DNA of 64,000 nucleotides, taken from NCBI GenBank assembly GCA_000004985.1, contig GG738915.1; one strand, written 5' to 3'. Origin of the DNA: Naegleria gruberi. Its lineage: Eukaryota. The notes under the pieces are model-generated. The model was not told the DNA's origin, searched no databases, and worked only from the letters and a program-made list of their open reading frames with translations. Shown piece by piece: positions 8,101-63,037 of the stretch. Every line of letters begins with the position of its first letter. The stretch's first letter is position 1. The position numbers were made by a program, and so were the translations under genes.

Positions 8101-8230
8101 CGGAATCATCCACTCCATCATCCCTCCTCTTTTTAAATAACTGTTTATGAATATCAACCTTCCTTTGAGTTGTCGAAGAAGCAGAAGAACCTCCACGAAC
8201 AAACGAAGGAGGACCAAAACCTTGAAACAT
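5141..8230 (-). CDS. Type II membrane glycosyltransferase (GT2-like, Golgi-type) with an acidic cytoplasmic N-terminal tail.
   Basis: The N-terminus is a poly-Asp/Glu tail followed by a single TM helix (TLTAFLLVIILMFLLISGFISIY). A GT-A/GT2-like stretch reads 'LVSVITTFSNEDSFKNTRDSILRQTFRYFEWIIIVNQGEP'. A second 'VVVITTDTEESNH' segment suggests a tandem glycosyltransferase domain. It is a 1029-aa intronless ORF. Confidence 0.45.
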   Translation of the reverse strand: MFQGFGPPSFVRGGSSASSTTQRKVDIHKQLFKKRRDDGVDDSDDDEEMREVDLGINIMDDQDYQNYTNSSGEEEFDDSDGDDYLPRGRGSFITLDGDDDDDDDYDVERGTSFSYSSTNRNRSVMKRFNSKPAKKSKRGKRNTIDETKMLKERPEKVECTLTAFLLVIILMFLLISGFISIYRTETVISKDDKGLPIHKEVATQQKDTVHSHGHILRGKHQQGNSKKTVKSKHHSIISKHVNSKNHTSYFEQMDSILPVMPYDEFLFQNTPISNYRIYSKEKISVHKFNNNHLGKDTPLVSVITTFSNEDSFKNTRDSILRQTFRYFEWIIIVNQGEPHDKILRWLSINPTVEKETPIDIGKMYKTNKISLIFSNEKQSQGMLKIVACKYLAKESRYLTFVESGGMIEPSLLEKLFLFLEFQTLSTSTPITMVNTMTLEFDKMKFFNLYRVQESAQMLTQKNLFHSTFMIEKQVFEKLGGFNSNPMEYSLVIWDFWVKYIQKGYRSWTIPEVLLWHNIQGKEKDSDRVTTEKSEEKKFISTHLKKRYKTMFEEKAAKELQSRGYLTTKVKIPNSKTILRRLAHDRHKFHKGKDRSIILVSENLNDPRRREFIVKLMESFIFEYDWHVVVITTDTEESNHAYRAELERYSTDIFHLNHFVDKTLPPDEHVLSLLIQYVISTRHIHNIFIMESILGYKSLSLLPPQLMEFTRVLDYIYTSNTNKYITESVKHNDLVYKTFLSSPDLTQLSSLIEIKSEKTSVLYPSLVNLAEFRVKPSDKKLDYLVNVNEEDFTLIGSKDILNFDENSKDLIISYWISDEDKSRCDSDVFKIIKYILESEHLERVKFLLLTDKKLSYNLDIFPEDRNEKESKTHNTIKLFSMIEELTSKHPDRILFVKPGKKASSRTLKKYLRLFSPYSHVNLFSDSCGVQSTSQVSIPPIVFQSMATQNAIIALHHQPDTTLENFINKFKIGISVGLYKPDDEHTIIETLQKWLKDLESFNTIRTANIELIYNLFNVHSVSNMIHSQAMH

Positions 8231-8321
8231 TTTTTTAATATTATTAGATTTTTATTTTCGAGATATTTGATGAATCATCTAGTTTACAAAAGCAGATCTC
8301 ATTATCCAATGGAACGACCTT

Positions 8322-9257
8322 TTAAAAGATGGATAATGTTGGGAAGAGTAAGATCCAAAAGCTTATCAATCCAAAAACGTAAAAAGTGGCAATAATTGGC
8401 TTACTCATGTTAAAACTTGGTAAACCCATTTGATTGCAGTAGGCATGTAAAAGGATGGCAGCAAGAATGCAACTAGTTTTTGCATAAATGTATCCACAAT
8501 AGAACCCAAATACTGATGTGTAGGTGAATTGCACTATAACATTAATAAGTGCAGAGGTAATTGACATTTGTCCATGTACAACATGTTCAATAATATGATG
8601 GCAATGGCAAACTCCAAATAAGAGGCATGCAATCAGTAATGAGCTCAACAATGAAATTCCTCCATAATAATACAATAAATAATGTAAACAAGTTCTAAAT
8701 ACAATTTCCTCAGTCAATGGACCCATTACAATAGCTCTGAATGAGAAGAGTCCTTGTTCATCCTGAATAACTTTCTGCTCATCTAAAAGGAAAGCAGTGA
8801 ACAATTTCGACATTTCCAACAAGTTTGTACACAATTCCACAAATGATTTGCACACCCACTCAATTTTCCTCTTAATATAATCCATATTCAATTTGGAAAC
8901 TTCATCTACTTCCAATTCCTCAGCAATAGGACCCAAAAACAAGCAAGTATTCAAAAAGATTGCAATAATTATTGCCAAAATTTGGTAATGTATCTGGGCA
9001 AAATTAAATCCCATAGAGGAGAGTAATCCCATTTCCTGATGACTTTCATGATTTCCGAAGAATAAATAAACAAGACAGGAATAAATTATCGAGACCAATG
9101 ATGACAAGAGAACAGAGATACTTCTACGGCGAACTTGTGATGGTTCATTCCTAGATTTTGCTAAACTTCCATCCCACATATACAACGATCCGACATACAA
9201 TGCCGAGAGTACAATGGCGTGAATGACGGCAAGGATTTCTCTACTATTTTCAAGCAT
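8322..9257 (-). CDS. RCE1: CAAX prenyl protease 2 (RCE1; CPBP/Abi family intramembrane protease).
   Basis: The protein is multi-TM and carries the three RCE1/CPBP motifs: EExxxR (GPLTEEIVFR), FxxxH (FGVCHCHH) and HxxxN (HAYCNQMG). I moved the start to the first ATG (MLENS...) because the track start is a TTG. Confidence 0.7.
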   Translation of the reverse strand: MLENSREILAVIHAIVLSALYVGSLYMWDGSLAKSRNEPSQVRRRSISVLLSSLVSIIYSCLVYLFFGNHESHQEMGLLSSMGFNFAQIHYQILAIIIAIFLNTCLFLGPIAEELEVDEVSKLNMDYIKRKIEWVCKSFVELCTNLLEMSKLFTAFLLDEQKVIQDEQGLFSFRAIVMGPLTEEIVFRTCLHYLLYYYGGISLLSSLLIACLLFGVCHCHHIIEHVVHGQMSITSALINVIVQFTYTSVFGFYCGYIYAKTSCILAAILLHAYCNQMGLPSFNMSKPIIATFYVFGLISFWILLFPTLSIF

Positions 9258-28934: not shown

Positions 28935-30422
28935 TTATTTATTGTTAACTTGATGTTTACGACTCATGGATTGATCTTCAAAAAAATTATGCTTGTATTC
29001 GAGTAATTGCAAATTTGGAAAGTTTTGACTTTTTTGAATTATTTCAAAATCAAAAACATTGTCATTACCAGAAATATCCAATTCTGTAATTCTTGTGAAA
29101 TTGGTAGAATTAGCCAAAGTAGAGCAATTATCCTCTTCTAATTGAGTATTACATAAATTTAAGTATGTCAATCTTGTAATAAATTTACTAGTTGCCAAAT
29201 AAGTACAACCTTCAGATCCAATGGGATTTGATTTTAATTGTAATTCTTGTAATTTTGAAAGTGTTGGTGAATTAGTTAAATATTTCAAACATTCTGCTGT
29301 CAATTCACAATAACTCAAAGATAAATCAGTTAAATTTCCAAATACCTTTTCGTTTTCACTTAAAACTTTACAAGATTCTTCATTTAATTTAATATTATCT
29401 AATATTAATCTACATAATTTCAATGAACTTTTAGCTAGAAAATTAATTGAATTAAAGGAGCAAAAAGTTCTTCCTAAATTCAAACTTTGTAAATTTTTAA
29501 AAAGTTCATTATTTTCAGAAATGAATTGACAAACCATGTCAGAACTAGGTGTTCCAAATAAAACTAATTTCTTCAATTTTGGTAAATTCTCTAAAATTTT
29601 AATGAATATAGAATCATTACATTTGCTACAGCCAATATCTAATTCTGTTAATTGATCTAATTTGGCATTTTGTAAAGATAGATCATTAAAAAGAACATAT
29701 TCACCAGCTCTATGAAGATTCAATACCTTTAAATTACTTAATTTATCACCGATATTAATATAGTTCAATCTAATATTATTATTTAAATGTAATTCTGTTA
29801 AATTTGGTAATGGATTTTCTAGATCTAAAGAAACAATTCCACAATCATTAATTTTTAAAACTTTTAAATTCTTTACAATATTAGAAGTAAAAATAGTATC
29901 CAATCCATAATTATTCGACAAATCAAGACTAGTTAATTGATTGTTTAAATTTGGTAACAAAACTTGTTGAATACATTCACTAAACTCATATCTACAACCA
30001 ACACGTAGAGATTCTAAATTTTCCAATAATTCATCATCAATTCTTTCATTTTTAAATGGAATTCCTTCACCTAAACATAAACTTTTTAACTTTCCTGTTT
30101 TGAAATAGTGAATTTTACGTAATTCAGAAATTATCATTTCTCCACCTTTGAATCCACTCAAATTCAATCCAGTTAAATTAAAATTAATACCCATAGTACT
30201 GATTGTTTTAACATTCTTCTTTACATTACTAAATTGTGAATTACTTTTAAATTCAATAGACACTGGAATGGGAAGAGAAAATTCCCTCCACAATTTACAA
30301 ACTTTTAAACAGTTCAAAATAGATTGGCCATCACAATAGTATAAAATATATTTCAACTCATCGTGTGCAAGATCATCAATTGCAACGATTCCGACTTTAT
30401 CATGAGCTGCTTGAGTTGCCAT
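28935..30422 (-). CDS. F-box-like/LRR (RNI-type) repeat protein.
   Basis: The N-terminus 'DDLAHDELKYILYYCDGQSILNCLKVCKLWREF' is F-box-like. It is followed by more than 12 LxxLxLxxN/C LRRs ('LTELHLNNNIRLNYINIG', 'LQELQLKSNPIGSEG'). It is a 495-aa intronless ORF. Confidence 0.55.
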   Translation of the reverse strand: MATQAAHDKVGIVAIDDLAHDELKYILYYCDGQSILNCLKVCKLWREFSLPIPVSIEFKSNSQFSNVKKNVKTISTMGINFNLTGLNLSGFKGGEMIISELRKIHYFKTGKLKSLCLGEGIPFKNERIDDELLENLESLRVGCRYEFSECIQQVLLPNLNNQLTSLDLSNNYGLDTIFTSNIVKNLKVLKINDCGIVSLDLENPLPNLTELHLNNNIRLNYINIGDKLSNLKVLNLHRAGEYVLFNDLSLQNAKLDQLTELDIGCSKCNDSIFIKILENLPKLKKLVLFGTPSSDMVCQFISENNELFKNLQSLNLGRTFCSFNSINFLAKSSLKLCRLILDNIKLNEESCKVLSENEKVFGNLTDLSLSYCELTAECLKYLTNSPTLSKLQELQLKSNPIGSEGCTYLATSKFITRLTYLNLCNTQLEEDNCSTLANSTNFTRITELDISGNDNVFDFEIIQKSQNFPNLQLLEYKHNFFEDQSMSRKHQVNNK

Positions 30423-30584: not shown

Positions 30585-31688
30585 TTAATGGCTAGGAAAA
30601 ATTCTGTCCATTATTGAACATCCATACTCATTGTATTGTTCTTTGTGAACTCTATATGGCCTCATATGTCCCATTGAACTAACAATGGAAGCTCCAATCC
30701 AAGATGAATAATTTCTTTCTGGAGGTGAAATTATTCGAAACGAATGTCTTTGGTTGAGTTGGTCAAGTTCTTGTTTCAATTTGACATTGAAATCCTGTAT
30801 TAAACTTGTTCCTCCACTTAGAATAATATTAGAGTATAAATCTAATTTTGTATCAATTGGGCATTTACAAATTGAATTGTAAATTAATTCAGCAATTCCA
30901 AAATCTGAACTAATTCCCACTAAATTGGGATTAAATAAACATTCCACACATTCATATCTTTCCCTACTTGTTTCAATTAATGTACCATCTGGTAATTCAT
31001 ATTGTTGAACTAGATATTCCTCCCCTTTTGAACATGTCACAATTGACTCTTTCATTTCTCTCAAAATTTCCATTTCTGATGAAGATGTAAAATTAATTCC
31101 TTTGTATTCCAATAATTTGCCAAGATATTTATCAATTGATTTTCCACCAACATTTAATTTTCCACTCGCATGTGAAATAACGTAACCTTCATGAATGGGC
31201 AAAACTCTACAAGACGAATCTCCACAATCAGCAATCAATCCACTCGTTCGACCAGCACTATACATGGCCATCACTTGTGCATTTCCAAATCCCAAGCTTG
31301 CACTATTGAATGATTCGAAACAGAGTTGTGTTAATGAATTTCTATTCGATTTTAAATTACTGGAAGGTTCCACTAACATGATATTAGAATCTTGAAGTGG
31401 AATATTTAAATTATGAAATGTATATTCGAAAAATAATGCCAAAACATCCCAATTAATTATTTTACCATTATCGATTGGATGAAAGAGTGAAAGAATTCCT
31501 CGGAGTTTGTTTGCTTCCTCTCCAATATAGGATAGTTTCGAATAGGATGAAAGATAATTTAATGCAGTTGTTTGATACTTTGGAAAACCAATCATTGAAT
31601 AAAAGTTTAGAACAGGAGCATCCGATCCACTAAAACCAGCTCTAATACAATGGGAACCTAAATCTATAGTAAGAGTTTCGTCTTGCAT
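30585..31688 (-). CDS. Actin-related protein (a divergent Arp).
   Basis: It shows the actin fold: 'TLTIDLGSHCIRAGFSGSDAP' matches actin '[21 protein letters not shown]', and '..ILSGGTSLIQDFNVKLKQEL..' with 'SWIGASIVSS' matches actin '[20 protein letters not shown]' and 'VWIGGSILAS'. It is 367 aa. Confidence 0.7.
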   Translation of the reverse strand: MQDETLTIDLGSHCIRAGFSGSDAPVLNFYSMIGFPKYQTTALNYLSSYSKLSYIGEEANKLRGILSLFHPIDNGKIINWDVLALFFEYTFHNLNIPLQDSNIMLVEPSSNLKSNRNSLTQLCFESFNSASLGFGNAQVMAMYSAGRTSGLIADCGDSSCRVLPIHEGYVISHASGKLNVGGKSIDKYLGKLLEYKGINFTSSSEMEILREMKESIVTCSKGEEYLVQQYELPDGTLIETSRERYECVECLFNPNLVGISSDFGIAELIYNSICKCPIDTKLDLYSNIILSGGTSLIQDFNVKLKQELDQLNQRHSFRIISPPERNYSSWIGASIVSSMGHMRPYRVHKEQYNEYGCSIMDRIFPSH

Positions 31689-32113
31689 TTTTTTCTAATA
31701 TTTTTAAAATGGTATAACCCAAGCTGCAAAGAAATGTATCTCAATAACTGTATTGACCTACGCCTATCTTTTCAATAAAACAATAGATAAATACTTTAAA
31801 ACAAGGAATCTTGCCATCTGGCTTGATTCAACATTGGGGTTGTGTCCTATCGTTTTATGTCATAATTATAATTTGGGCATAACTATTAATATGTCATTAT
31901 GTTTTGGCAGAAACCCACTTTCGAGATTATAATATGCCATGATATGTTTACCTTTTTGTTGGAGCTGTATTATTGAACTTTGCTCTTTGCAGATCATGAG
32001 GGTTATTGGTGCGATCATAAAAATCGTATGTAGGTGTGCCAGACAGTCCCTGGTTCTCTTAAAGAGGGGATTGCTGTGGGTTAATAAAATTGTTTCTGTG
32101 GTCACAATAACAT

Positions 32114-34177
32114 TTAATTATTATTTGGATGTAGACTGGAATCCAAAAACATACAAGCTACTTCAAATTTAACATCAGTGTATGCACTTGTTTGTTCGCT
32201 TTGAACTGTACAATGCAACGTTGCCATGCCAGAAAGGTTGTTAAAGAAATCCTCAGCGCCTATCTCAAATTGTCTTGTACTACTCCTGTACACCCTATCT
32301 GTCACCATGTTATCTCTATGTATTAAGAGCTTAATAGGAACATTCTCATGAGTGTCATGGTCCTCAGCAGCTACTTCCAAAGTAAAGGAGCCACCAGTCT
32401 GTGGATATATCACTAACGGTTCTGTTGCCCAATTATTGTAATTGTGAGTCACATCCATTGTTCCTGTTGCCACAATGACAAATCTATTCTGGTAGCTCTC
32501 ATACTGACATAGTTTTTGTATCGGGAATAATGCATCACCATCTTGTAGATGGAGGTTGCTGGTATTGCAAGAGACCCTTTCATGTATAGCAACATCACCC
32601 AGTGAAGTAGTGTTAGCAACTAATGTATTGCTACTTTTTTGCAGAATGTACACCTTAGCACCAGGTAAACAATTTGTTACCAGTACTTCATTAGCCCCTG
32701 GTCTAACATATTTTTGCACCTCCGGTAACACACTTATGAATAGGCCATCGTGAGGTAGGTCTAGTATTGTTGCTTCTGTTTCACGATCGGCATTACAACC
32801 TGTCTGTTTTACCTTCACTTTTCTCTCGATACCTCTCTGTTTCATGAGTACATGAGAAAGGTGTAGTGTTACATTATCACTATCTACCAATACAGGTAAA
32901 TCACAAAGCCCTACAGTATCGTCATCTGAATAGTAAGCTTGCAGAGAGCTAGAGGGATATGCTCCTCTAACGGAAACAAGTTGAGAGCATTCATATAATG
33001 GCTCATAGATTACTAGGGGGCCGACAACACCAGAATTATTGAGATCATGAATTTCGACAGGATCAGCGTATTCACTTTCCTCACCACAAGCTATCTGCTT
33101 GGCAGTCAATCTATCACCTGGTTCGAAAGTTATTCCTTGGAATTCAGGAAGAATTAAAACATCATCACCAGTTTTGCTTGCTATTATCGGAAGACCAATT
33201 TGTACGTATGGATCTCCTCCATTTGGGTTTTTCTTCCACTGTGCAAACTGTACAAAGGCATCTTGTTCAAGATTTCTCAAGAACACCTTACCAATGTCCA
33301 AACACACGCCTGATGGTGCATTAATAATTGGTTTGAGAGGTTTCTCTTGTGGAAGTACCTCTAACTCGAGGGGATCAGAAATCTGCTCACACTCCTCACG
33401 AAACTGCTGCCAAATCTTCAACATAGTTCCCTTCTTCGAATGTGGAATACCACTTGCATGGAATTTTGGACCTGAAGTAATTAAAATTGTATACCACCAG
33501 TTCTTGTTCGTACCACTATAGTTTTCTATACACAATTGTGCTGTAACCCTTGCATTGTTGACATCTAAAGAATCTGTGCATGCATGGACGTCTCCTCCTA
33601 TCTCTAATTTTGGTAACCGACCTCCCCCTGGAATCTTTTCTATCTCAATAGGTGAACTAAACACGCTGGGACTCGTTAATACCCCATTAACAGTCGTGAC
33701 TTGCTGGTAAGCTTCTATTGAGAATGCTGCACTGGGATGATTGGAAACTTCTACATAATCCAATGACCTAACAGCAGGGTTACGTCTGCCAATTTCAGAC
33801 AAGTTTTGACGGATTATTACCTGCGCCCCAGGCTCCATATTATTCAGAATCAACCACTGCATGCAAGTGCTTAGAGGAGAATTAAAGCAAAGAGGTTGAA
33901 GTGTTGTCACTGAACGAACAGTTGCTTCTGCCTCTGGGCTTAAATTTCCATTAACCATTTGAAGCACAATGATAGTTTCTCCAGGAATAAGCACCGTGCC
34001 TTGAGTAAAGGGTACCCATACTATACCATGATTGTCAATGTTATCAACACTACCTATTATAGTTCCATTTCTCATAATGATAACTGAGGCATTTGGTGAG
34101 AGACTTGTAACACAAACATTTGGTGAAATCTCAGTGATTTGGCCGTTAATTAGTGGTGCCTGTGGTTTAACTCCCAT
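32114..34177 (-). CDS. Hypothetical 687-aa protein encoded by a compositionally atypical (about 45% GC) intronless gene.
   Basis: It is a long clean ORF with an ATG start. Its base composition and codon usage differ from the roughly 30-35% GC neighbours. It has no signal peptide and I recognise no domain; the sequence has the look of a beta-rich protein. Confidence 0.4.
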   Translation of the reverse strand: MGVKPQAPLINGQITEISPNVCVTSLSPNASVIIMRNGTIIGSVDNIDNHGIVWVPFTQGTVLIPGETIIVLQMVNGNLSPEAEATVRSVTTLQPLCFNSPLSTCMQWLILNNMEPGAQVIIRQNLSEIGRRNPAVRSLDYVEVSNHPSAAFSIEAYQQVTTVNGVLTSPSVFSSPIEIEKIPGGGRLPKLEIGGDVHACTDSLDVNNARVTAQLCIENYSGTNKNWWYTILITSGPKFHASGIPHSKKGTMLKIWQQFREECEQISDPLELEVLPQEKPLKPIINAPSGVCLDIGKVFLRNLEQDAFVQFAQWKKNPNGGDPYVQIGLPIIASKTGDDVLILPEFQGITFEPGDRLTAKQIACGEESEYADPVEIHDLNNSGVVGPLVIYEPLYECSQLVSVRGAYPSSSLQAYYSDDDTVGLCDLPVLVDSDNVTLHLSHVLMKQRGIERKVKVKQTGCNADRETEATILDLPHDGLFISVLPEVQKYVRPGANEVLVTNCLPGAKVYILQKSSNTLVANTTSLGDVAIHERVSCNTSNLHLQDGDALFPIQKLCQYESYQNRFVIVATGTMDVTHNYNNWATEPLVIYPQTGGSFTLEVAAEDHDTHENVPIKLLIHRDNMVTDRVYRSSTRQFEIGAEDFFNNLSGMATLHCTVQSEQTSAYTDVKFEVACMFLDSSLHPNNN

Positions 34178-34810
34178 TATATCTTTTCTACAATTGAAAC
34201 TTCAGTTTTTTTGGTGGATTGGTGGATTGTTTTAGAGATATTTATGTTGACGTTATTTTGCAAAATGTACATTTACTAAACTCAAAACAAATCTAAACCA
34301 GGCAAAACGACATGTATGAAATATGTAAGATGAGTAAATTCCATTTCCAAAGAAAAAATCCATAACTAAAATAGAGCCTGTGATAATAAACTTACTCTTT
34401 TTTGGATTGGTATTTTTCTCTCAAAAAGTTACATGTTCAACTTGGTTCTTGGTTATTACAGCAAATTATTCAGGGGCATTTTCAGCGGTCATACCACCAG
34501 AGCAATTTACTTTTAATTGAGGGATTTATTGAACGAGGAGATGGGAGGATGCTAAATTATTAAAGATGTATTCCATTGACTTGGATATTGCACAAAGTCA
34601 AGGTATTACAGAAGCACAATGGTTACAAACTGCTTTTCAGTTTTAATGTTTAAGTAATTATTCCATAAAGAAAATGAATCCAAATCATTGCCTTACAAAG
34701 GAGCAAGTGGATTATTTATTATCAATGAGTTTTAGGGATTCTCTAAAAAATGAAAAGGCAAAGGAAACCAAACAAAGAAACGGTCACAAAGAACAAACAC
34801 CAAAGAAAGA

Positions 34811-35134
34811 TTGAATTGGAAAACAATTGATTCTAGTTCTCAATTTCTAAACTCCGATTATGAATCACACAATTTATGTGAGGGAAAATATCTTCTCCGA
34901 TTCCCAAATATTTCCTGTGATGATTTTCAGAATATTTGCTCCACCATTTATCAAGAGAATGGAGGTGGATTGAATAGGAGGAAATATAAGGTGATGGCTT
35001 ATCCGGATCGGATGCATTCACTTCCGAGTGGTTGGTATAGACATTTGTGTAGGAAATGTATTGTTTTGACGAATGAGAGTCATTATGATGATGAAGAGTA
35101 TTGTGCTGGAAATGATTTTTCCAATGGATATTAA
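34811..35134 (+). CDS. Small Cys-rich hypothetical protein (107 aa). Low confidence.
   Basis: It is an isolated ORF inside a roughly 1-kb intergenic stretch. There is no homology support. Confidence 0.15.
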   Translation: MNWKTIDSSSQFLNSDYESHNLCEGKYLLRFPNISCDDFQNICSTIYQENGGGLNRRKYKVMAYPDRMHSLPSGWYRHLCRKCIVLTNESHYDDEEYCAGNDFSNGY

Positions 35135-35236
35135 ATTTATGATTTATATTTAAATAAATTATAATATATTTATTTTGTAATAGTTTTAAATAGGTTTAAT
35201 ATTGCTTTTCGGAAATTTGGAAATATTTAAAAAAAA

Positions 35237-36304
35237 ATGGAGCAACTTAAACAAACTCTCACAAAGATTTGGCAAGAGCCTATTCTTGTTGGTCATCAAT
35301 ATTTACCACCCAAAATTTATGATCTCCTATGGAATATTACAGAGGGAATATTAACTGCGCTATTATATCCGATTTGCATCGTAGTGGGAGTTGTCAGCTT
35401 TTTATATTATAATTTGATAAAGAAGGGAGGAAAGGATTTATTCAAATCATCAGAGGAATATAATTATGAAAAGATTTTAATTGTTGGAAGTAGTAGTGGA
35501 ATTGGTAGAAGTTTGGCTCTTGAAATTTCAAGCAAATTCGCCACTAGAAAGAATCAAAAGAGTTTGACCTTGACATTGGTTGGAAGAAATTTGGCTGCTA
35601 ATGAAAAGTTAAAAGAAGAATGTAGTGCTATTATTAAAGAAAGTCATCCTGTTGAAGATTTTGAAATTAATGTTAGACAAGCTGATGTGACAAACGCTGA
35701 GAGAATGAAGGAAATTGTTAATGAAATGGATTATGATTGTATCATTGCTAATGCTGGTGTTACAATCTTTGTCATGATGGGAGATAAGAAACCATCTGAG
35801 TTCACAACATTGGAAAAGATTCAAATGGAATTCAAATGTTGGGAAACTAATCTTACTGGTTGCACTAATACTGCCTTCCCAGCCATTGAAAGATTGATTC
35901 AAGATGCTGACAATGGAAACAAGAAGAGAAGACATGTTATTTTAACATCTTCTGGAACAGCATACTTCCCAGAAATGGGTCTCTATCCAACAGCTAAATC
36001 TGCTCTTATTGGAATTGCTAGAAATCTCAGAGCCAAGTTGGAATCCTCTCCTAAATATTCAAATCTTAGAGTTTCAGTTCTAGTGCCAGGATGGGTCCAT
36101 TCAAGTATGTCAAAGGCTTTCCCAGCTAAGGAAATGCAACTTGGAATGATTTCTTCAGAGTTGGCTGCCAAGTTGACTTGGAGTGGAATTGAACGTGATT
36201 TTGAAATTATTGATATTAGTGGAGTTTGGGGATTGATCATGCGTGTTTTCCTCAAATTCCCATTCAATCTTAGTTCATCACTTGTGGCTTTACTCGATAG
36301 ATAA
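35237..36304 (+). CDS. Short-chain dehydrogenase/reductase (SDR) with an N-terminal TM anchor.
   Basis: The Rossmann motif reads 'ILIVGSSSGIGRSLALEI' (TGxxxGIG). 'NAGV' is present. The catalytic YxxxK reads 'YPTAKSAL', preceded by 'TSSGTA'. Confidence 0.8.
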   Translation: MEQLKQTLTKIWQEPILVGHQYLPPKIYDLLWNITEGILTALLYPICIVVGVVSFLYYNLIKKGGKDLFKSSEEYNYEKILIVGSSSGIGRSLALEISSKFATRKNQKSLTLTLVGRNLAANEKLKEECSAIIKESHPVEDFEINVRQADVTNAERMKEIVNEMDYDCIIANAGVTIFVMMGDKKPSEFTTLEKIQMEFKCWETNLTGCTNTAFPAIERLIQDADNGNKKRRHVILTSSGTAYFPEMGLYPTAKSALIGIARNLRAKLESSPKYSNLRVSVLVPGWVHSSMSKAFPAKEMQLGMISSELAAKLTWSGIERDFEIIDISGVWGLIMRVFLKFPFNLSSSLVALLDR

Positions 36305-43400: not shown

Positions 43401-45173
43401 TTAGTTGTCGTCTACTGTACTCTCCTTTAACACAGCATCTTCAAAATTTTGGATTTGATGATCAATAAAGTGTTGAAAACGAGAACAGTCACTAACTTTC
43501 CATTCAATTTCATTCCATTTCGAAAGTAATTTAAACATCATGCTGGAGAAAGAGGATAGATCTTTAAGAATTTGAACTTTTTTCAATTTTGGTGGTTTAA
43601 ACTGTTGCAATAACTCAATATCTTTGTACGATGAAAATGTACATTCCAATGCAATTAAATTCTCATAGTTTTTACCCAATTCTTCAAAAAATTCTTTTGG
43701 AAATTCTCCAATTGTACAAATAATACTTAAATATTCCAAATTTCTCAGTACATCCAATTTAATAAAATCCATCAATTGCTCCTTTCCACTGATTACCACT
43801 GATAATCTCCTTAAATGTTTTAAATGTTCAATCTTTTCCAAATTTTGAGAGATATCTGAATTTGTAAACAGCGATTCCAAATTATTCAAACATTCATTAG
43901 AAAACATATTAAAATCTATATCTCCTAGGACTTTGATACGTAAATGCTTCAAATTTTTAACTAAGCTCAAATTACTCAAACTAAATGCCAAATCTTTGGT
44001 CGCATATAAATTAAATACTAATATTTCTAAATTTCTCAATGTATTATTACTGAAAAATTTTTCAGTGTCCTTAAATACTCTCGAAACTATTTTCAATATT
44101 TTCAGATTTGAAAAGTTATATTTCCATACATGATTAAGACAATAACTGGCTTGATCAGTGTCTTGTGAATAATCAATCCTTAAGTATTTTAAATTTAGAA
44201 TCATATCAGTGTCAACAACCTCATCATCTTGCTCACTTGCATCTATCATGTATGCTTTTAAAATTTCTAATGTTTTAATATTATTTAGAAGCATTATTAG
44301 TTGCTTTTCACCATCGAGCTGTATATCCAAAACTGAGAGGAGTTTCAAATTTAAAATCCGAGAAATATTACTAAATAGATCATCAATTCTCAATATTCTA
44401 AGACAGTCAGTATAATTATTGATAATTGGTGATAGTTTTTTCATAATATCATACTCCTCCATTGAAATATCTAAAAGTTTCAAATTATATAAATTTCTGT
44501 CTTTTAATTCTATTTTGTTATAACTAGTTTTAATTTTTATAAATTGTATGGTAGGTTTCTTGAAATGGAATGTGAAAGTTTTATCATTTTCCTCAAATAA
44601 CCTCTTAATGACAAGGTGTTTGATGTTTACACATTTGAGAATTAATTTTAATAGAGAATCGGGTTCATACTGAGAAAGTATTTCCAAATTTTCTATTTGA
44701 ATTAAATCACAGTTAGGTATTAGAGTAGATTTCCTTATCAATAAATTTTTAATAGTATTAATAACATTCCTAAATTGTTTTGAAACTGTCAAGTATTTAA
44801 AAATCTCAAAATCATAATTTAAATATGCAAATATGTTACATAATACATCATCACAAAATAATTCCGAACAGGTTTTGATTTGTTTGGTTTTCAACAGTTT
44901 ATCGTGATCCATATCTTGATCACTAATTTCCTCAAATTTGCGTTTGTTCTTATTTTCATCAGTGCTACTTCCATTTGATTTTAATTTACATAATTCAATT
45001 TCCAATTTTAATTCTTCCTGTCTTGCTTTTGCTTTGGCTTCTTCTTGAGTGAATTGTAATTTCAACTTCCACAATTCAAATATTTGCTCCGAAGAGAGTC
45101 CAAGCCTTTGACATTGTTCAATGAAACCATCAGAGTCCCCACCATCCTTTAACACAGCATTTTGTTGCGGCAT
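43401..45173 (-). CDS. F-box-like/LRR protein with an N-terminal coiled coil.
   Basis: The coiled coil ('QEELKLEIELCKLK') is followed by an F-box-like segment ('CDDVLCNIFAYLNYDFEIFKYLTVSKQFRNVI') and then many LRRs ('LKHLRIKVLGDIDFN', 'LEYLSIICTIGEFP'). Confidence 0.5.
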   Translation of the reverse strand: MPQQNAVLKDGGDSDGFIEQCQRLGLSSEQIFELWKLKLQFTQEEAKAKARQEELKLEIELCKLKSNGSSTDENKNKRKFEEISDQDMDHDKLLKTKQIKTCSELFCDDVLCNIFAYLNYDFEIFKYLTVSKQFRNVINTIKNLLIRKSTLIPNCDLIQIENLEILSQYEPDSLLKLILKCVNIKHLVIKRLFEENDKTFTFHFKKPTIQFIKIKTSYNKIELKDRNLYNLKLLDISMEEYDIMKKLSPIINNYTDCLRILRIDDLFSNISRILNLKLLSVLDIQLDGEKQLIMLLNNIKTLEILKAYMIDASEQDDEVVDTDMILNLKYLRIDYSQDTDQASYCLNHVWKYNFSNLKILKIVSRVFKDTEKFFSNNTLRNLEILVFNLYATKDLAFSLSNLSLVKNLKHLRIKVLGDIDFNMFSNECLNNLESLFTNSDISQNLEKIEHLKHLRRLSVVISGKEQLMDFIKLDVLRNLEYLSIICTIGEFPKEFFEELGKNYENLIALECTFSSYKDIELLQQFKPPKLKKVQILKDLSSFSSMMFKLLSKWNEIEWKVSDCSRFQHFIDHQIQNFEDAVLKESTVDDN

Positions 45174-58855: not shown

Positions 58856-60517
58856 TTATTTAAGCAGCGGAATGATATCAAATTCATCATCAGCAGTTCC
58901 AACTTGTTGAACATCTCTCTTTTGATTGTCTCTGAAATTTTCCCATTGATCATCTGTCTTGACAACTTTAAAACAGTAATGGTCGAGAATATGTTCAAAA
59001 TCTTCTTTCCACGCATTCTTAACTCTGGTTATGTTGAATTGTTTACAAATGAATCGTATTGCAACTCCAGGTTGCCTGGTTTTGGCTAGGAATCCCATTT
59101 GTTCGGAAGTGAAAAGAACTCTTCTTCCTGCCAATCTAATTTCAGCTGGTTGAGATATTATTTTGTACTCTTTCTTGACCTTATCTACATAATTTGTAAA
59201 AAGCTTGTAGAAAAGCTTGTGAATTTTCTTTTCAGCCTTCAATTCTACCTGTAATTGCTTAATTTCTGCATCCTTCTCTGCTAGTTGCTGCAAAAGATAA
59301 CTATTAACAAACATTGGTTGACTATTGAACATTGGTTGGTTAAATGATTGGCTAGTTTCAGGATTATTCATCAAGCCAAGGAAACTAACTTGATTTTCAT
59401 CAACAAATGAACTACCACTAATGTTATCACCGACAGTAATACTACTACTACTACTACTACTACTACTGCTACTGCCAGCACTACCAGCACTACCAGCACT
59501 ACCAGTACTGCCAACACTACCAGTAGAAAAAATTGGTTGCTCTCTATTATTGGTCTGTTGTGAAATCAAAGGTTGAGGACAAGTAACATCTTTTGGAGTT
59601 GTGGAATTATTCAACATTGATGGATTCACATTGGATGATGATGAACTTAAATGAGGAACTATGGAAGTGGTAACCTTATTTTCAAATATGACACTATTGT
59701 CAACTTCATCACTTTCATTTTGAAACTTGTTTTGGAATTGAGTAAAGGTCATTCTATTGGTGGCTGCCTCATAATTAACACTCATGCAGGACAGGTTCCA
59801 ATCTTCTATTTGATTGGGAAGCAATTCATCACTGTAGTACTTGTTACAATCTGGTACCAGTGATGTAATTACCACTCTAACTTTGCCAGATTCATCACAC
59901 CCAGTCATAGTGTAGCCATTAGCAATATGAACGAGTTGTTTATCCAATTCTATACCCAAACATACATTGGTACCAAAGGAAGGGGTTGAAGTGAGCTGAT
60001 TTCTTGTCATTAAGTTTGCTTTGACAAAGGAGTCCTTATCCAAAAAGCTTTTCAATTCATCCTTATGACTGAGGATTGTACTCTTGTGTTCTAGAATGGT
60101 GGTTAACAGAGCTGTCTTGTTGCCAGAGTATGACAAACTAGTAGAGCTGTATTTACTACATGATATGATGAAAGCCTTCAAAAAGTCACTTTTAAATTTC
60201 AATTCTTCCAACAATTTAACAGTACAATTAGTGTGCTCTAGATTTGCAATTAATTTGGTGAAGGATTGATTATCACTTGCTTTCAGACCATCTTTCCATG
60301 GTAATGGTTTAGCCTTTTTTAAAGGTTGTACAACTTGAATTTGTTGATCAACAGTGGATGATGATGTAATAGTTTGTGATGTTTGTGTAGGAGGATGGAA
60401 TTGAAATTGTTGAGATGATGATATTGTGGCAGGTGTAGGAAGGCTAGCCTTTCTCTTCTTACCTCTCTTTGTTTTAGTTTGGTTCGGATCGAACTGAACG
60501 AAATGCAGTGAAGACAT
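58856..60517 (-). CDS. Hypothetical 553-aa protein transcribed divergently from the transposase gene. It may be encoded by the element.
   Basis: The N-terminus is basic (KRGKKRKAS), and an (ACT)n microsatellite encodes a Ser/Gly run. No domain recognised. Its ATG lies 47 bp from the transposase ATG. Confidence 0.35.
   Translation of the reverse strand: MSSLHFVQFDPNQTKTKRGKKRKASLPTPATISSSQQFQFHPPTQTSQTITSSSTVDQQIQVVQPLKKAKPLPWKDGLKASDNQSFTKLIANLEHTNCTVKLLEELKFKSDFLKAFIISCSKYSSTSLSYSGNKTALLTTILEHKSTILSHKDELKSFLDKDSFVKANLMTRNQLTSTPSFGTNVCLGIELDKQLVHIANGYTMTGCDESGKVRVVITSLVPDCNKYYSDELLPNQIEDWNLSCMSVNYEAATNRMTFTQFQNKFQNESDEVDNSVIFENKVTTSIVPHLSSSSSNVNPSMLNNSTTPKDVTCPQPLISQQTNNREQPIFSTGSVGSTGSAGSAGSAGSSSSSSSSSSSITVGDNISGSSFVDENQVSFLGLMNNPETSQSFNQPMFNSQPMFVNSYLLQQLAEKDAEIKQLQVELKAEKKIHKLFYKLFTNYVDKVKKEYKIISQPAEIRLAGRRVLFTSEQMGFLAKTRQPGVAIRFICKQFNITRVKNAWKEDFEHILDHYCFKVVKTDDQWENFRDNQKRDVQQVGTADDEFDIIPLLK
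59438..59525. repeat. (ACT)n/(ACCAGC)n microsatellite.
   Basis: 'actactactactactactactgctactgccagcactaccagcactaccagcactaccagtactg'. It encodes a Ser/Gly run on the minus strand within the 58856..60517 gene. Confidence 0.9.
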
Positions 60518-60564
60518 TTTTTAAAAAAAACACCAACTCCACAACAAGTGACACTTTCACCATA

Positions 60565-63037
60565 ATGAAAGAGAAGAGCAATCATTCTAAGGCTTGGTCT
60601 GAATCAACTTCATACAACGTTTACAAGAGGAGTAGTACGAATAAGCAACAACAGCCGAATCGTGATGGCCCCAACCATATGAATATTTCTTCTTTTAATA
60701 TCATCAATGGAGAGTGCAATGCTCAACCCTGCAGATTGTTTGATAGGCATCAAGAACAGATTACCAAAGACTATCTTCCAACTTTCATTAGGGATCTGAA
60801 TGCTTATATGCAAGCAAACTCTATCAATTACCAACTCAATTGTCCTCAACAACAACAACAACAGCCTCAACAGCCTCAACAACAACAACCATCATTACCT
60901 CAACAAATACCCATTCATCCAATAGATAATTCATCACTACCTGCTTCTCCATCATCATCACCAGCATCAACACCATCATCATCAATATCAAATGGAGAAT
61001 TAGGAGGACTGGACATTATGCATGACGATGAATTATTAGATAATCTTGATTTCATGGAAGTTTGGAGAGAGAATTCACTGAAAACACTAAGAAAGCAACT
61101 AACAAAGAAAAAGGATTGCTCTATTGGCAATAATAACCAGCTATCCGATCTATTGTTCGATTTATTATCATTCTATACCGATTCCAACATTTCAAAGGTT
61201 AACATGAGACGAATAGTTGATCTCTTTAACAAGTACTCGGCGATTGGAAAAAAGATTCCAACCCTAGATACTCTCATCAGTAGAATTCACAATGTCAACA
61301 ATGAGTATGAAAAGGTGTTTTATTGTTCAAAGCATTTGACAATTATTAAAGGTGAAACTCTGAAGGCTTGTTCCTGCGAGCAGTGTAGTGTTGAGGGTGT
61401 ATTGAACAAGGAGAATATTCAACACTTTTGGACTAAAAGTATTGCCTCGTGCATATCGAATATGGTTGATAGGGTAGGCTTGAGAAGATTCCAATCACAC
61501 CTATCTGCAGCTACTGATACGAACATTCCTACAGTGGGCCAGAAACATTTCATTAAGGACTGTGTTGATGGGGTCGAGTATAAGAGAATTACAGACAAGT
61601 GGGTCATTCGAGATGATCCCAACACTATTTGCCTCACCATTAGTGCTGGCACTGATGGTGGCTCTGTCAACAAGTCCAACTCTAAATCCATCAATCCTCT
61701 CTTCTTTTGGATAAATGAGATTGGATTGAAACACAGATTTTCCTATCCATTGACTTCATTGGCAGCATATGCAAACCACAAAATACCCTATCAAATACTC
61801 TTGTCCAAATTTATAGATGAACTCAATGAATTGGACAAGGGTTTGACTATTGTTACCAAGGGAGGATGTAAATTCTTTCTAAAAGTAAGTTGATTGTGTG
61901 ATTCATTGGACAACAAGCCAATTATTATTATTATATACATGTGAAACAAATAATTGGATTTGTTACTAGGTTCGCCTCTTTCAAATGATTGTCGATTTGG
62001 TTGCTGCAAAAGATCTCTTGCAAATCAATGGTCACTCGGGCCTGTGTGGTTGTAGATGGTGTCTACATACAGGAGAAAAGAAGGGAGAAAACACTGGTGT
62101 ATTGTATTGTGTAGGAAATTCGAGTTGTAATAGTGGAGTCAATAGAGTTTGGAATAACATGATGCCACAGTTTTGCAAGTTGCAAAAAAATGAGATTTCT
62201 TCCTTCGATGGTGTGATTGGCATTTCAATTCTCCTCAAGCTCAGCTATTTTAGATGGACTACTCAGGTAGCCTGTGATATTTTGCACAATCTTTTAGAGG
62301 GTCTTTGTAAAAAGATTTTGAAGAATATTTGTTCATTGTACAAGACTTTAATTCCCAGCATTGATGGTAAGTATTGTGGTGAAGGAAAAATATGAACTCA
62401 ACCCCTTGGTGTTTAACAATTGAAAGAACGCATCAAACTTATTGAAACTCCATCCATGTATCACAGAGAGATTCGTTCCTTGAATGAGGCTGCAAAGTTC
62501 AAAGCTATTGAATACTACATGTTGTTTGCCTATTGTAAGGATGTTTTCAAGAATATTATTTCTGAAAACCACTTTAACATTTTAAAAAGTGTCGAAACTT
62601 TTATAGGACTCATCATGAATCCTAGTGAGAAGAGTGAGCAAGCCAAGGCAAGTCTATTGCAAATGGCATTCAACTTGCTGCGAAGTGTGGAAATTGAATT
62701 TGGTGAGGAGGATATTACAATGGCCTCTCATACTGTTCTTCACTTTCCATTGTAAGTACTCTACTAGTTATTCAGAATGCAACAATTTCATATAATATTG
62801 ATTGTTTTAAAACAAGATCGATATGGAATTTGGGCCCTCTCTATACCAAACTCTACGTTCATGTTGGAGGATTTGATGGGCTCTCTTACTTCCTCCATCT
62901 ATGGAGGAAAGGCCAACATGGATCATAAGGCTTTGGAGAATTGGTCCATTCATCAAATGACCAGTTTGAAAAGGGTGAGACAATTCACACTTCCAATACG
63001 AACATGGTTTGTATCTTTTTTTTTCAAAGGTTGCTGA
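60565..63037 (+). CDS. CACTA/EnSpm-type (Transposase_21/Tnp2-like) transposase. Four exons: join(60565..61884, 61970..62366, 62427..62751, 62776..63037). The last exon may be decayed.
   Basis: 'FYCSKHLTIIKGETLKACSCEQC' matches the CACTA motif 'ACPNDCILYRGE..LEACPVC'. 'ICLTISAGTDGGSVNKSNSKSINPLFFWINEIGLKHRF' matches 'LsLSsDGfnPF....S.WPV.l.iyNLPP..R'. 'GHSGLCGCRWC' and 'VACDILHNLLEGLCKKIL' (matching D.MH.EKN) follow. The introns have GTAAGT donors and are 85, 60 and about 24 nt long. The first ATG is at 60565; the track ORF begins at a GTG. Confidence 0.6.

What the first reader, a model, noticed from the sequence alone, without database searches (positions are those of the whole stretch)
31700..34300. 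Compositionally foreign (about 45% GC) intronless 687-aa gene of unknown function, a candidate horizontal or viral acquisition
The ORF at 32114-34177 (minus strand) is markedly more GC-rich than its flanks. For example 33541-33600 is 45% GC and 34261-34320 is 30% GC. Its codon usage differs from the neighbours, it has no introns, and it matches none of the eukaryotic families seen in the rest of the window. The roughly 400-bp 3' flank shares the elevated GC. A single compositional island in an otherwise uniform AT-rich region suggests a recent lateral transfer from a bacterium or a large DNA virus, or an unusual expression regime.
Basis: seen in the sequence. Interest (0 to 1): 0.65.

Follow-up and report, generated by a model that had tools for sequence, protein, structure and literature searches.

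The report
Bacterial Ig-repeat gene acquired by Naegleria
This gene of the amoeba Naegleria gruberi encodes a chain of seven immunoglobulin-like domains from an unnamed, otherwise bacterial protein family, so it is most likely an old gene transfer from soil bacteria, a known kind of event in bacteria-eating protists.

Summary
The window is Naegleria gruberi. The intact 687-codon ORF at 32114-34177(-) is the most GC-rich 2-kb stretch in it. It is 40.6% GC, not 45%, against a window mean of 33.5%. Third-codon-position GC is ordinary (31.5% against 29.1±4.6%), and about two thirds of the excess comes from amino-acid composition (rich in Gly, Ala, Val and Pro; poor in Lys). The 3' flank is not elevated (33.6%).

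The protein matches no Pfam, NCBIfam, PHROGs, PADLOC or PDB sequence. An exhaustive search found 112 relatives, mostly about 750 aa and 25-32% identical over most of the length. Every named or context-checked non-amoebal relative is bacterial. These span five phyla and include an intact copy on a conjugative Rhodococcus plasmid. Searches of viral collections found nothing specific.

The only closer relatives (43-55%) lie on metagenome contigs, one of which carries heterolobosean genes. Those copies are 51-55% GC and look disrupted. A confident AlphaFold model shows six homologous Bap-like Ig modules, a seventh Ig-like domain, no signal peptide and no enzyme domain.

Verdict: bacterium-to-heterolobosean transfer is supported, but it is not recent and not viral. 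The function is probably non-enzymatic binding or scaffolding, which is inferred rather than shown.

The parts
32114..34177 (-). Intact intronless CDS of 687 aa plus TAA stop. It is 100% identical to a Naegleria gruberi 'predicted protein'.
   Evidence: GC is 40.6% and GC3 is 31.5%.
33908..34165 (-). Ig-like module D1 (aa 5-90). It begins within a few residues of the start Met. There is no signal peptide.
   Evidence: AF2 model, pLDDT 76-95. hhalign of D1 against D2-D6 gives probability 97.9-98.9%. No hydrophobic N-terminus.
33626..33907 (-). Ig-like module D2 (aa 91-184), with the conserved motif SPLSTCM and C105.
33344..33625 (-). Ig-like module D3 (aa 185-278), with conserved C200 and C263. 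It carries an insertion (NWWYTILITSGP) shared only with the metagenomic relative P0002.
33038..33343 (-). Ig-like module D4 (aa 279-380), with conserved C292 and C364.
32744..33037 (-). Ig-like module D5 (aa 381-478), with conserved C397 and C461.
32465..32743 (-). Ig-like module D6 (aa 479-571), with the VRPGA and LPGA motifs and conserved C557.
32117..32464 (-). Seventh beta-sandwich domain D7 (aa 572-687), not homologous in sequence to D1-D6. The protein ends here and lacks the C-terminal domain of about 125 aa found in most bacterial members.
   Evidence: hhalign probability at most 0.1% against D1-D6. 72 of 82 family members extend by a median of about 136 aa, against 13 aa here and in P0003. 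The 3' flank holds no remnant of that domain.
31689..32113 (.). 3' intergenic flank up to the next gene, an actin-family protein at 30585-31688(-). Its composition is ordinary.
   Evidence: GC 33.6%. Actin Pfam hit at 1e-85.
34178..35236 (.). 5' flank up to the short-chain dehydrogenase gene at 35237-36304(+). It is AT-rich.
   Evidence: GC 30.4%. adh_short Pfam hit.

Best explanation
The ORF is a real, selectively maintained Naegleria gruberi gene. Its ancestor was acquired by a heterolobosean amoeba from a GC-rich bacterium.

It belongs to an unnamed, rare family of leaderless bacterial proteins of about 750 aa. These are built from six tandem Ig-like modules of about 90 aa, of the Bap C-repeat / Big_6 type, followed by a seventh Ig-like domain. 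The amoebal copies have lost the bacterial C-terminal domain.

The gene has been in the host long enough for synonymous sites to reach host composition. What remains as a GC island is mainly the amino-acid make-up inherited from the bacterial family (rich in Gly, Ala, Val and Pro; poor in Lys), plus a flatter-than-host codon choice.

Function (inferred, not shown): a non-enzymatic binding or scaffolding protein that works through its array of Ig-like domains. It has no signal peptide or membrane segment, so it would be cytosolic or exported unconventionally.
For: Host and integration:
- The protein is 100% identical to an N. gruberi predicted protein on a 260-kb scaffold.
- It is flanked by actin-family and F-box/LRR genes on one side and a short-chain dehydrogenase gene on the other.

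Selection:
- The 687-codon frame is open while the alternative frames carry 50-72 stops.
- All 27 nearly invariant family positions are kept.

Family:
- There are 112 representatives among 1.84 billion proteins. Most are about 750 aa and align over residues 5-577 or more.
- Named members come from Vicinamibacterales, Inquilinus, Methylocystaceae, Gemmatimonas, Thermomicrobiaceae and Bryobacteraceae metagenome-assembled genomes.
- An intact 755-aa copy sits beside integrases on a conjugative Rhodococcus ruber plasmid.
- Bacterial chromosomal contexts were verified. They include DAHP synthase, mdh-sucCDAB, flagellar hook-length control, DegP and a porin.

Phylogeny:
- The Naegleria sequence groups with P0002 and with P0003 at 100% bootstrap.
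- That clade sits among bacterial sequences, nearest to P0004, P0032, P0008 and P0015.
- The amoebal sequences share loss of the C-terminal domain.

Age:
- GC3 equals that of the host.
- P0003's contig carries Arf, TTL, START and ankyrin genes. Its TTL is 49-50% identical to the Naegleria orthologues and 46% to Willaertia.

Composition: amino-acid content predicts 38.4% GC out of the observed 40.6%.

Fold:
- The AF2 model has pLDDT 85 and pTM 0.77 and is all-beta.
- D1-D6 are mutually homologous at 97-99% hhalign probability.
- Five of 30 members give weak Big_6 hits.
Against: - The backbone of the NJ trees is unsupported (0-44% bootstrap), so the donor lineage and strict nesting are not resolved.
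- I could not search the N. fowleri, N. lovaniensis or Willaertia genomes directly. Absence there rests on protein databases and on a word-indexed search of limited sensitivity.
- The relatives' copies have GC3 of 53-61%. That is hard to reconcile with one ancient transfer followed by vertical descent.
- There is no expression evidence.
- No conserved bacterial neighbour gene points to a function.
- Conserved cysteines suggest disulfides and hence an extracytoplasmic location, yet 80 of 87 full-length members have no leader.
- The target itself passes no Pfam Ig-domain threshold.
Confidence: 0.72

Rival explanations
1. Repeated or recent delivery. The Naegleria copy and the GC-rich copies in the related heterolobosean(s) were acquired independently from one unsampled, GC-rich donor lineage associated with these amoebae, such as an intracellular bacterium or a virus. 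That donor lineage already lacked the C-terminal domain.
For: - The L001 and L002 copies have GC 51-55% and GC3 53-61%, in a background of about 39-42% GC (GC3 about 0.40-0.48). The neighbouring Arf gene, and L7Ae on another contig from the same sample, are not GC3-rich.
- Such a signal should have decayed if the gene had been inherited since the split, which is measured by 50% TTL identity.
- Both GC-rich copies look damaged. L002 has TAA where L001 has AAA, and L001 has a frameshifting deletion.
- There is no synteny between the loci.
- The family occurs on a conjugative plasmid next to integrases.
Against: - No donor closer than about 32% identity exists among 1.84 billion representatives.
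- Amoebal identity (43-55%) matches the divergence expected for vertical descent.
- The shared domain loss and shared insertions are explained more simply by one event.
- Biased gene conversion or a local isochore could maintain the high GC.
- The stop and the frameshift could be population variants or assembly errors.
Confidence: 0.15
2. Acquisition from a giant virus (Nucleocytoviricota) or another virus of Naegleria.
For: A giant virus infecting Naegleria is known (PMC11043551, listed). The gene is an orphan with no introns.
Against: - No relative was found in IMG/VR pattern scans using the target or a bacterial family alignment.
- tblastn against 50,697 phage records found nothing.
- BFVD fold matches are generic tandem-Ig arrays with TM of 0.20 or less.
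- Every context-checked homologue is in a bacterial chromosome or plasmid.
- The flanking genes in the window are ordinary cellular genes.
Confidence: 0.04
3. A native, vertically inherited eukaryotic gene whose composition reflects only its amino-acid content or expression regime. On this view the bacterial homologues would be the recipients.
For: - GC3 is host-like, and most of the GC excess comes from amino-acid composition.
- A native saposin-like gene is equally GC-rich.
- At least two or three heterolobosean contigs carry family members, including the fully host-like P0026 copy.
Against: - Among 112 representatives, only P0001, P0002, P0003 and P0026 are amoebal or unplaced. The named members among the rest come from at least five bacterial phyla.
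- No homologue from any other eukaryotic group was recognised among the hits that could be named or placed in context, in a database that does hold Naegleria, Willaertia and Acrasis proteomes.
- The module type is a typical bacterial adhesin Ig fold.
Confidence: 0.06
4. Bacterial contamination or misassembly in the Naegleria scaffold.
For: None beyond the bacterial affinities of the protein.
Against: - The ORF lies 426 bp from an actin-family gene and about 1 kb from a dehydrogenase gene, inside 64 kb of contiguous AT-rich eukaryotic sequence.
- Its GC3 of 31.5% is amoebal, whereas bacterial homologues have GC3 of 0.73-0.84.
Confidence: 0.01

Closest known systems
Bap (biofilm-associated protein) C-repeats of Staphylococcus, and Pfam Big_6 bacterial Ig domains
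   Different: The target reaches no Pfam threshold. It has no signal peptide, no LPXTG or other anchor and no N-terminal functional region. It has only six repeats plus a different seventh domain. It carries conserved cysteines at the module ends. The model is globally confident (pTM 0.77), which may mean defined contacts between domains rather than a flexible stalk.
Leaderless giant adhesins built of bacterial Ig domains and secreted by type I secretion (SiiE, LapA class)
   Different: No ABC-transporter or membrane-fusion-protein genes lie next to any of the nine bacterial loci examined. The protein is far smaller. It is cysteine-rich, which to my knowledge is unusual for type I secretion substrates. 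No RTX repeats were detected. The Naegleria protein lacks the C-terminal domain altogether.
Previously reported bacterium-to-protist gene transfers in phagotrophic protists
   Same: A single intronless gene, a patchy eukaryotic distribution, bacterial relatives, and integration among host genes. Such transfers are generally agreed to be common in phagotrophic protists (for example PMC4046809, abstract seen).
   Different: From my own knowledge, not checked here, most documented cases are metabolic enzymes. This is a non-enzymatic repeat protein from a family with no name. I found no paper describing it.
Alpha-2-macroglobulin, complement and TEP proteins (arrays of macroglobulin domains)
   Same: Compact multi-domain arrangements of fibronectin/Ig-like beta-sandwiches. 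There are weak structural matches to TEP1, C3, C5 and CD109, and one member gives a weak A2M_BRD hit.
   Different: There is no thioester domain, CUB domain or identifiable bait region. TM-scores are 0.18 or below. The protein is about half the size.

Membership tests
Gene acquired by a eukaryote from bacteria (horizontal transfer) | Homologues are overwhelmingly prokaryotic and taxonomically broad. | tested here: met
   There are 112 representatives. Named members come from Acidobacteriota, Alphaproteobacteria, Gemmatimonadota, Chloroflexota and Actinomycetota. Bacterial neighbour genes were verified.
Gene acquired by a eukaryote from bacteria (horizontal transfer) | The eukaryotic sequences form a clade nested inside bacterial diversity, with statistical support. 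| tested here: inconclusive
   The amoebal pairs have 100% NJ bootstrap, and the clade sits among P0004, P0032 and P0008. The surrounding nodes have only 0-44% support. No maximum-likelihood tool was available.
Gene acquired by a eukaryote from bacteria (horizontal transfer) | The gene is physically integrated among bona fide host genes and is not contamination. | tested here: met
   Actin-family and F-box/LRR genes lie on one side and an SDR gene on the other, within 1.1 kb. GC3 is host-like.
Gene acquired by a eukaryote from bacteria (horizontal transfer) | The gene is restricted to a narrow eukaryotic lineage. | tested here: met
   The only eukaryote-context homologues are L001 (heterolobosean, by its TTL neighbour) and L009 (eukaryotic neighbour genes, lineage not determined). 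L002 has no neighbour genes. Caveat: other Naegleria genomes could not be searched at the DNA level.
Recent transfer (not yet adjusted to host composition) | Synonymous-site composition still resembles the donor. | tested here: not met
   GC3 is 31.5% against 29.1±4.6% in the host. Bacterial homologues have GC3 of 0.73-0.84. Only a residual flattening of codon choice remains.
Pfam Big_6 / Bap C-repeat bacterial Ig-like domain | The sequence passes the Pfam model threshold. | tested here: not met
   The target has no Pfam family even at E ≤ 0.1. In homologues the best Big_6 E-value is 0.0011, in 5 of 30. The profile against Bap in the PDB gives E = 0.076.
Pfam Big_6 / Bap C-repeat bacterial Ig-like domain | An Ig-like beta-sandwich that superposes on a solved member. 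| tested here: met
Pfam Big_6 / Bap C-repeat bacterial Ig-like domain | Surface-protein architecture: signal peptide plus cell-wall or membrane anchor. | tested here: not met
   There is no hydrophobic N-terminus and no transmembrane segment (maximum 19-aa Kyte-Doolittle score 1.23). 80 of 87 full-length family members show no hydrophobic N-terminal window by a simple hydropathy cut-off.
Insert derived from a giant virus or phage | Homologues in viral genomes, or viral hallmark genes next door. | tested here: not met
   Searches found nothing. One search gave only generic Ig arrays. The window neighbours are cellular genes. The sensitivity of the pattern scans is limited.
Alpha-2-macroglobulin / thioester-containing proteins | A thioester domain and a bait region within the array of macroglobulin domains. 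| tested here: not met
   The model has only beta-sandwich domains. There is no such Pfam hit in the target. TM-scores are 0.18 or below.

The most novel reading that the evidence does not exclude
The gene marks an unsampled GC-rich donor, either a bacterial symbiont or pathogen or a virus of vahlkampfiid amoebae. This donor has delivered the same truncated Ig-repeat gene more than once into different amoebal lineages. The Naegleria copy would be an old, domesticated insertion. The 51-55% GC copies in the sister lineage, which carry a stop codon or a frameshift, would be young insertions that are decaying.
Probability: 0.15. Interest if true: 0.6.

Novelty: new member of a known kind. Interest (0 to 1): 0.35.

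Why it matters
This adds a clean, non-metabolic example to the list of bacterial genes fixed in a free-living, bacteria-eating amoeba. It also shows that a GC island can persist through amino-acid composition long after the synonymous sites have converged on the host, which matters for screens that look for transfers by composition.

It brings to light an unnamed bacterial protein family: six Bap-like Ig modules, no leader, conserved cysteines, present in at least five phyla and on a conjugative plasmid. Nothing is known about its biology.

The contrast between the host-like Naegleria copy and the GC-rich, apparently broken copies in a sister lineage offers a small natural experiment on the fate of transferred genes. 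None of this changes current understanding of Naegleria or of gene transfer.

Tried and rejected
- Single-sequence word-indexed homology search. It found only the protein itself. The profile version recovered only the two metagenomic relatives. That tool's sensitivity was too low for this family.
- Pfam, NCBIfam, PHROGs, PADLOC and PDB sequence searches with the target gave no hits.
- Self-BLAST for internal repeats found nothing. The repeats showed up only with profile-profile comparison.
Both metagenome scans returned no confirmed relative and did not even recover L001.
- Viral origin was tested and rejected.
- I looked for a remnant of the bacterial C-terminal domain in the 3' flank and found none.
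- I looked for a conserved operon partner in bacteria. None exists across nine loci.
- Whole-architecture fold matches gave only generic tandem-Ig alignments with TM below 0.2. The afdb50 library was unavailable.
- The full-length NJ tree was distorted because the fragments P0002 and P0003 do not overlap. I replaced it with separate trees for each half.
- Literature searches found no description of this gene or family. The N. gruberi methylome paper (PMC12344493) reports 112 methylated, mostly silent genes. I did not check the paper's supplementary gene lists for this gene.
Full report
**Source of the window and the observation**

The translated ORF at 32114-34177(-) is 100% identical to a 'predicted protein' of Naegleria gruberi on a 260-kb scaffold. 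The window is gene-dense: thirty ORFs of at least 200 aa cover about 68% of it. Long uninterrupted reading frames are therefore the rule here and not a peculiarity of this gene.

The ORF is real. It has 687 codons from ATG to TAA. An in-frame TGA lies 27 nt upstream, and the two alternative frames on the same strand contain 50 and 72 stops.

Its GC content is 40.6%, the highest of any 2-kb stretch in the window. The window mean is 33.5% (SD 2.2%), and the ORF is at z = 2.3 against the other 29 ORFs.

The excess sits at codon positions 1 and 2 (GC1 0.516, GC2 0.385). GC3 is 0.315 against 0.291±0.046 in the neighbours. If the same protein were encoded with the neighbours' codon preferences, the predicted GC would be 38.4%. 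About two thirds of the island is therefore amino-acid composition. Val, Gly, Pro and Ala are enriched, and Lys is 3.6% against 8.5%.

A real but modest codon-choice difference remains (chi2 157, 41 df). Usage is flatter, with GAG, CAG, ATA, GGC, AGC and ACG roughly doubled or more.

The 3' flank is 33.6% GC, which is average. The window is not uniform either. A saposin-like gene is 40.3% GC, and two ORFs are 25.5% and 27.6% GC.

**What the protein is related to**

The target has no hit in Pfam, NCBIfam, PHROGs or PADLOC, and no hit among PDB sequences. An exhaustive phmmer search of 1.84 billion cluster representatives found 112 proteins with E ≤ 1e-3. Thirty of these are at E ≤ 1e-10. Most are about 750 aa long, 25-32% identical, and align from residue 5 to about 577 or beyond.

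Wherever a source name exists, it is a bacterial metagenome-assembled genome:
- Vicinamibacterales, Inquilinus limosus, Thermomicrobiaceae and Bryobacteraceae.
- A scan of GTDB species genomes added Methylocystaceae, Gemmatimonas and another alphaproteobacterium.

I checked that these are real bacterial loci. The neighbour genes include:
- class-II DAHP synthase, a beta-lactamase-family protein, an amidase, a YkuD transpeptidase and a BBE oxidase;
- the mdh-sucCDAB cluster next to the closest full-length homologue, P0004, on a 73% GC contig;
- flagellar hook-length control, DegP, RarA and a porin;
- other ordinary bacterial genes.

No neighbour recurs between loci, so the gene stands alone.

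A tblastn search of plasmids found an intact 755-aa member on a conjugative 179-kb plasmid of the cultured Rhodococcus ruber R1. It lies directly beside two site-specific recombinase/integrase genes. The family therefore spans at least five bacterial phyla and can ride on mobile DNA.

Viral searches were negative. IMG/VR pattern scans with both the target and a bacterial alignment found nothing, and so did tblastn against phages. The viral fold library returned only generic tandem-Ig hits with TM of 0.20 or less.

**Relatives in other amoebae**

Two fragments are much closer to the target than any bacterial protein. P0002 is 52-55% identical over the N-terminal 290 aa. P0003 is 41-43% identical over the C-terminal 370 aa.

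P0003 lies on a 5.2-kb metagenome contig (L001) together with Arf-like, tubulin-tyrosine-ligase-like (TTL), START and ankyrin genes. That TTL has its best named matches in N. gruberi, N. fowleri and N. lovaniensis (49-50% identity in a common alignment). Willaertia follows at 46% and Acrasis at 36%. N. gruberi and N. fowleri differ from each other at 55%. The host of L001 is therefore a vahlkampfiid that branches near the base of Naegleria.

The divergence of the Ig-repeat gene (43%) is of the same order as that of this vertically inherited neighbour (50%).

The target and P0003 both lack the C-terminal domain of about 125 aa that 72 of 82 aligned family members possess. No remnant of it survives in the Naegleria 3' flank. 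The target and P0002 also share insertions absent from bacteria.

In trees built separately for each half, the amoebal pairs get 100% bootstrap. They sit among bacterial sequences, nearest to P0004, P0032, P0008 and P0015. The surrounding nodes are unsupported.

A third contig with eukaryotic genes (L009: L7Ae, ASCH/zf-C2HC5 and ADH neighbours) carries a more distant member, P0026. Its composition matches that of its contig.

**An unresolved twist**

The L001 and L002 copies are 51-55% GC, with GC3 of 0.53-0.61. The background on those contigs is 39-42% GC, with GC3 of about 0.40-0.48. These are far stronger islands than the one in Naegleria.

Both copies appear damaged. L002 has TAA where L001 has AAA. 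L001 has a frameshifting deletion just downstream of that point.

If all amoebal copies descend from one ancient insertion, synonymous sites in that lineage should long since have equilibrated. Three explanations are possible:
- local GC-biased processes maintain the island;
- that lineage acquired its copy more recently, from a donor related to Naegleria's donor;
- the apparent damage reflects assembly or population artefacts.

I cannot decide between these with the data in hand.

**Anatomy and likely mechanism**

AlphaFold2, run with a 30-sequence family alignment, gives a confident all-beta model (mean pLDDT 85, pTM 0.77).

Profile-profile comparison shows that residues 5-571 consist of six mutually homologous modules of about 90-100 aa (hhalign probability 97-99% for every pair). 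Residues 572-687 form a different beta-sandwich. The module consensus is PLPxPxφxxPφxxCxxxφxφxGxxPGAxφxφ…G…φxAxQxxCxxxS.

No structural match covers more than about 160 residues, and whole-chain Foldseek TM-scores stay at 0.20 or below. No catalytic domain is present.

The target has no signal peptide and no transmembrane segment. By a simple hydropathy cut-off, 80 of 87 full-length family members show no hydrophobic N-terminal window, and in most of them the first module starts within eight residues of the initiator Met.

Several cysteines are nearly invariant: C200, C292, C364, C397, C461 and C557. Some distant members are fused to a PKD domain or to a GlxA-like copper-oxidase C-terminal region. 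To my knowledge both are typically extracellular, which hints at an extracytoplasmic role in bacteria.

I therefore infer, but have not shown, that the protein acts as a non-enzymatic binding or scaffolding array. Its location in Naegleria, whether cytosolic or exported unconventionally, is unknown.

**Comparison with what is known, and novelty**

As an evolutionary event, this is a bacterium-to-phagotroph gene transfer, which is a well-known category.

As a protein, it has the fold of Bap/Big_6-type bacterial Ig repeats. It fails the sequence thresholds for that family, and it lacks the leader and anchor that define those surface proteins. I therefore describe it as Bap-like in fold and not as a member of that family.

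Giant-virus origin, contamination and native eukaryotic ancestry are each contradicted by specific tests (see the rival explanations). I found no paper describing the gene or the family.

**Verdict**

The island is real but smaller than stated, and it is mostly due to amino-acid composition. Bacterial ancestry is supported. Recent acquisition, viral origin and a foreign flank are not.

This is a new member of a known kind of event and is of moderate interest. The most novel reading not excluded is repeated delivery from an unsampled donor associated with these amoebae. It rests on the GC-rich, broken copies in the sister lineage, and I give it about 15% probability.

Noticed in passing
window 28935-30422(-) and 43401-45173(-): The first ORF (F-box/LRR) is 25.5% GC with GC3 of 15.5%. 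The second is 27.6% GC. They are AT-rich outliers at least as extreme as the target is GC-rich, so gene-to-gene compositional variation is normal in this window.
   Followed up: partly
window 13843-14709(-): A saposin-like (SapB_1/SapB_2) gene is 40.3% GC and has the strongest codon bias in the window (C-ending codons 23.6%, chi2 per codon 0.63). This looks like a native gene with its own codon regime, possibly reflecting high expression.
   Followed up: partly
L002:760-939 against L001:1-183: The two GC-rich amoebal copies are 87% identical in DNA over this overlap, while a contig from L002's sample (L010) is 97.5% identical to L001 across the neighbouring genes. L002 has TAA where L001 has AAA, which is a premature stop after module D3. 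The two contigs also differ by a 3-nt indel.
   Followed up: partly
L001:150-260: The L001 copy changes reading frame just after the peptide SGVCMDGG and lacks about 15 residues that are present in Naegleria. This is either a frameshifting deletion (a pseudogene) or an assembly error.
   Followed up: partly
L009:502-2415: A eukaryotic contig from the same sample as L002 carries a distant family member, P0026 (338 aa, about 28-31% identical). Its GC matches its surroundings. A second ORF downstream (1858-2415) resembles the bacterial C-terminal region by eye. This may be an older paralogue or a split gene.
   Followed up: no
L014:6986-9253 (Rhodococcus ruber R1 plasmid NZ_CP038031.2): An intact 755-aa family member is present, but the PLSDB gene table lists only its C-terminal 353 aa as a CDS (8192-9253). 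It lies next to two site-specific recombinase/integrase genes and upstream of a 920-aa unknown ORF.
   Followed up: partly
L007:8327-9976: A 549-aa Gly/Asp-rich ORF with no Pfam match ends 25 bp upstream of the closest bacterial homologue, P0004. It could be co-transcribed with it. Nothing comparable was noticed upstream in the gene tables of the other bacterial loci.
   Followed up: partly
protein P0022 (1211 aa) and P0023 (751 aa): Distant family members have extra C-terminal domains. P0022 has a GlxA-like radical copper oxidase segment (E = 3.6e-54), and P0023 has a PKD domain. To my knowledge both are typical of extracellular proteins.
   Followed up: no
window 58856-60517(-) and 60508-61893(+): Two long ORFs on opposite strands overlap by 10 bp at their 5' ends. 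The second starts with GTG in the mechanical ORF list, so its true start is probably further downstream.
   Followed up: no
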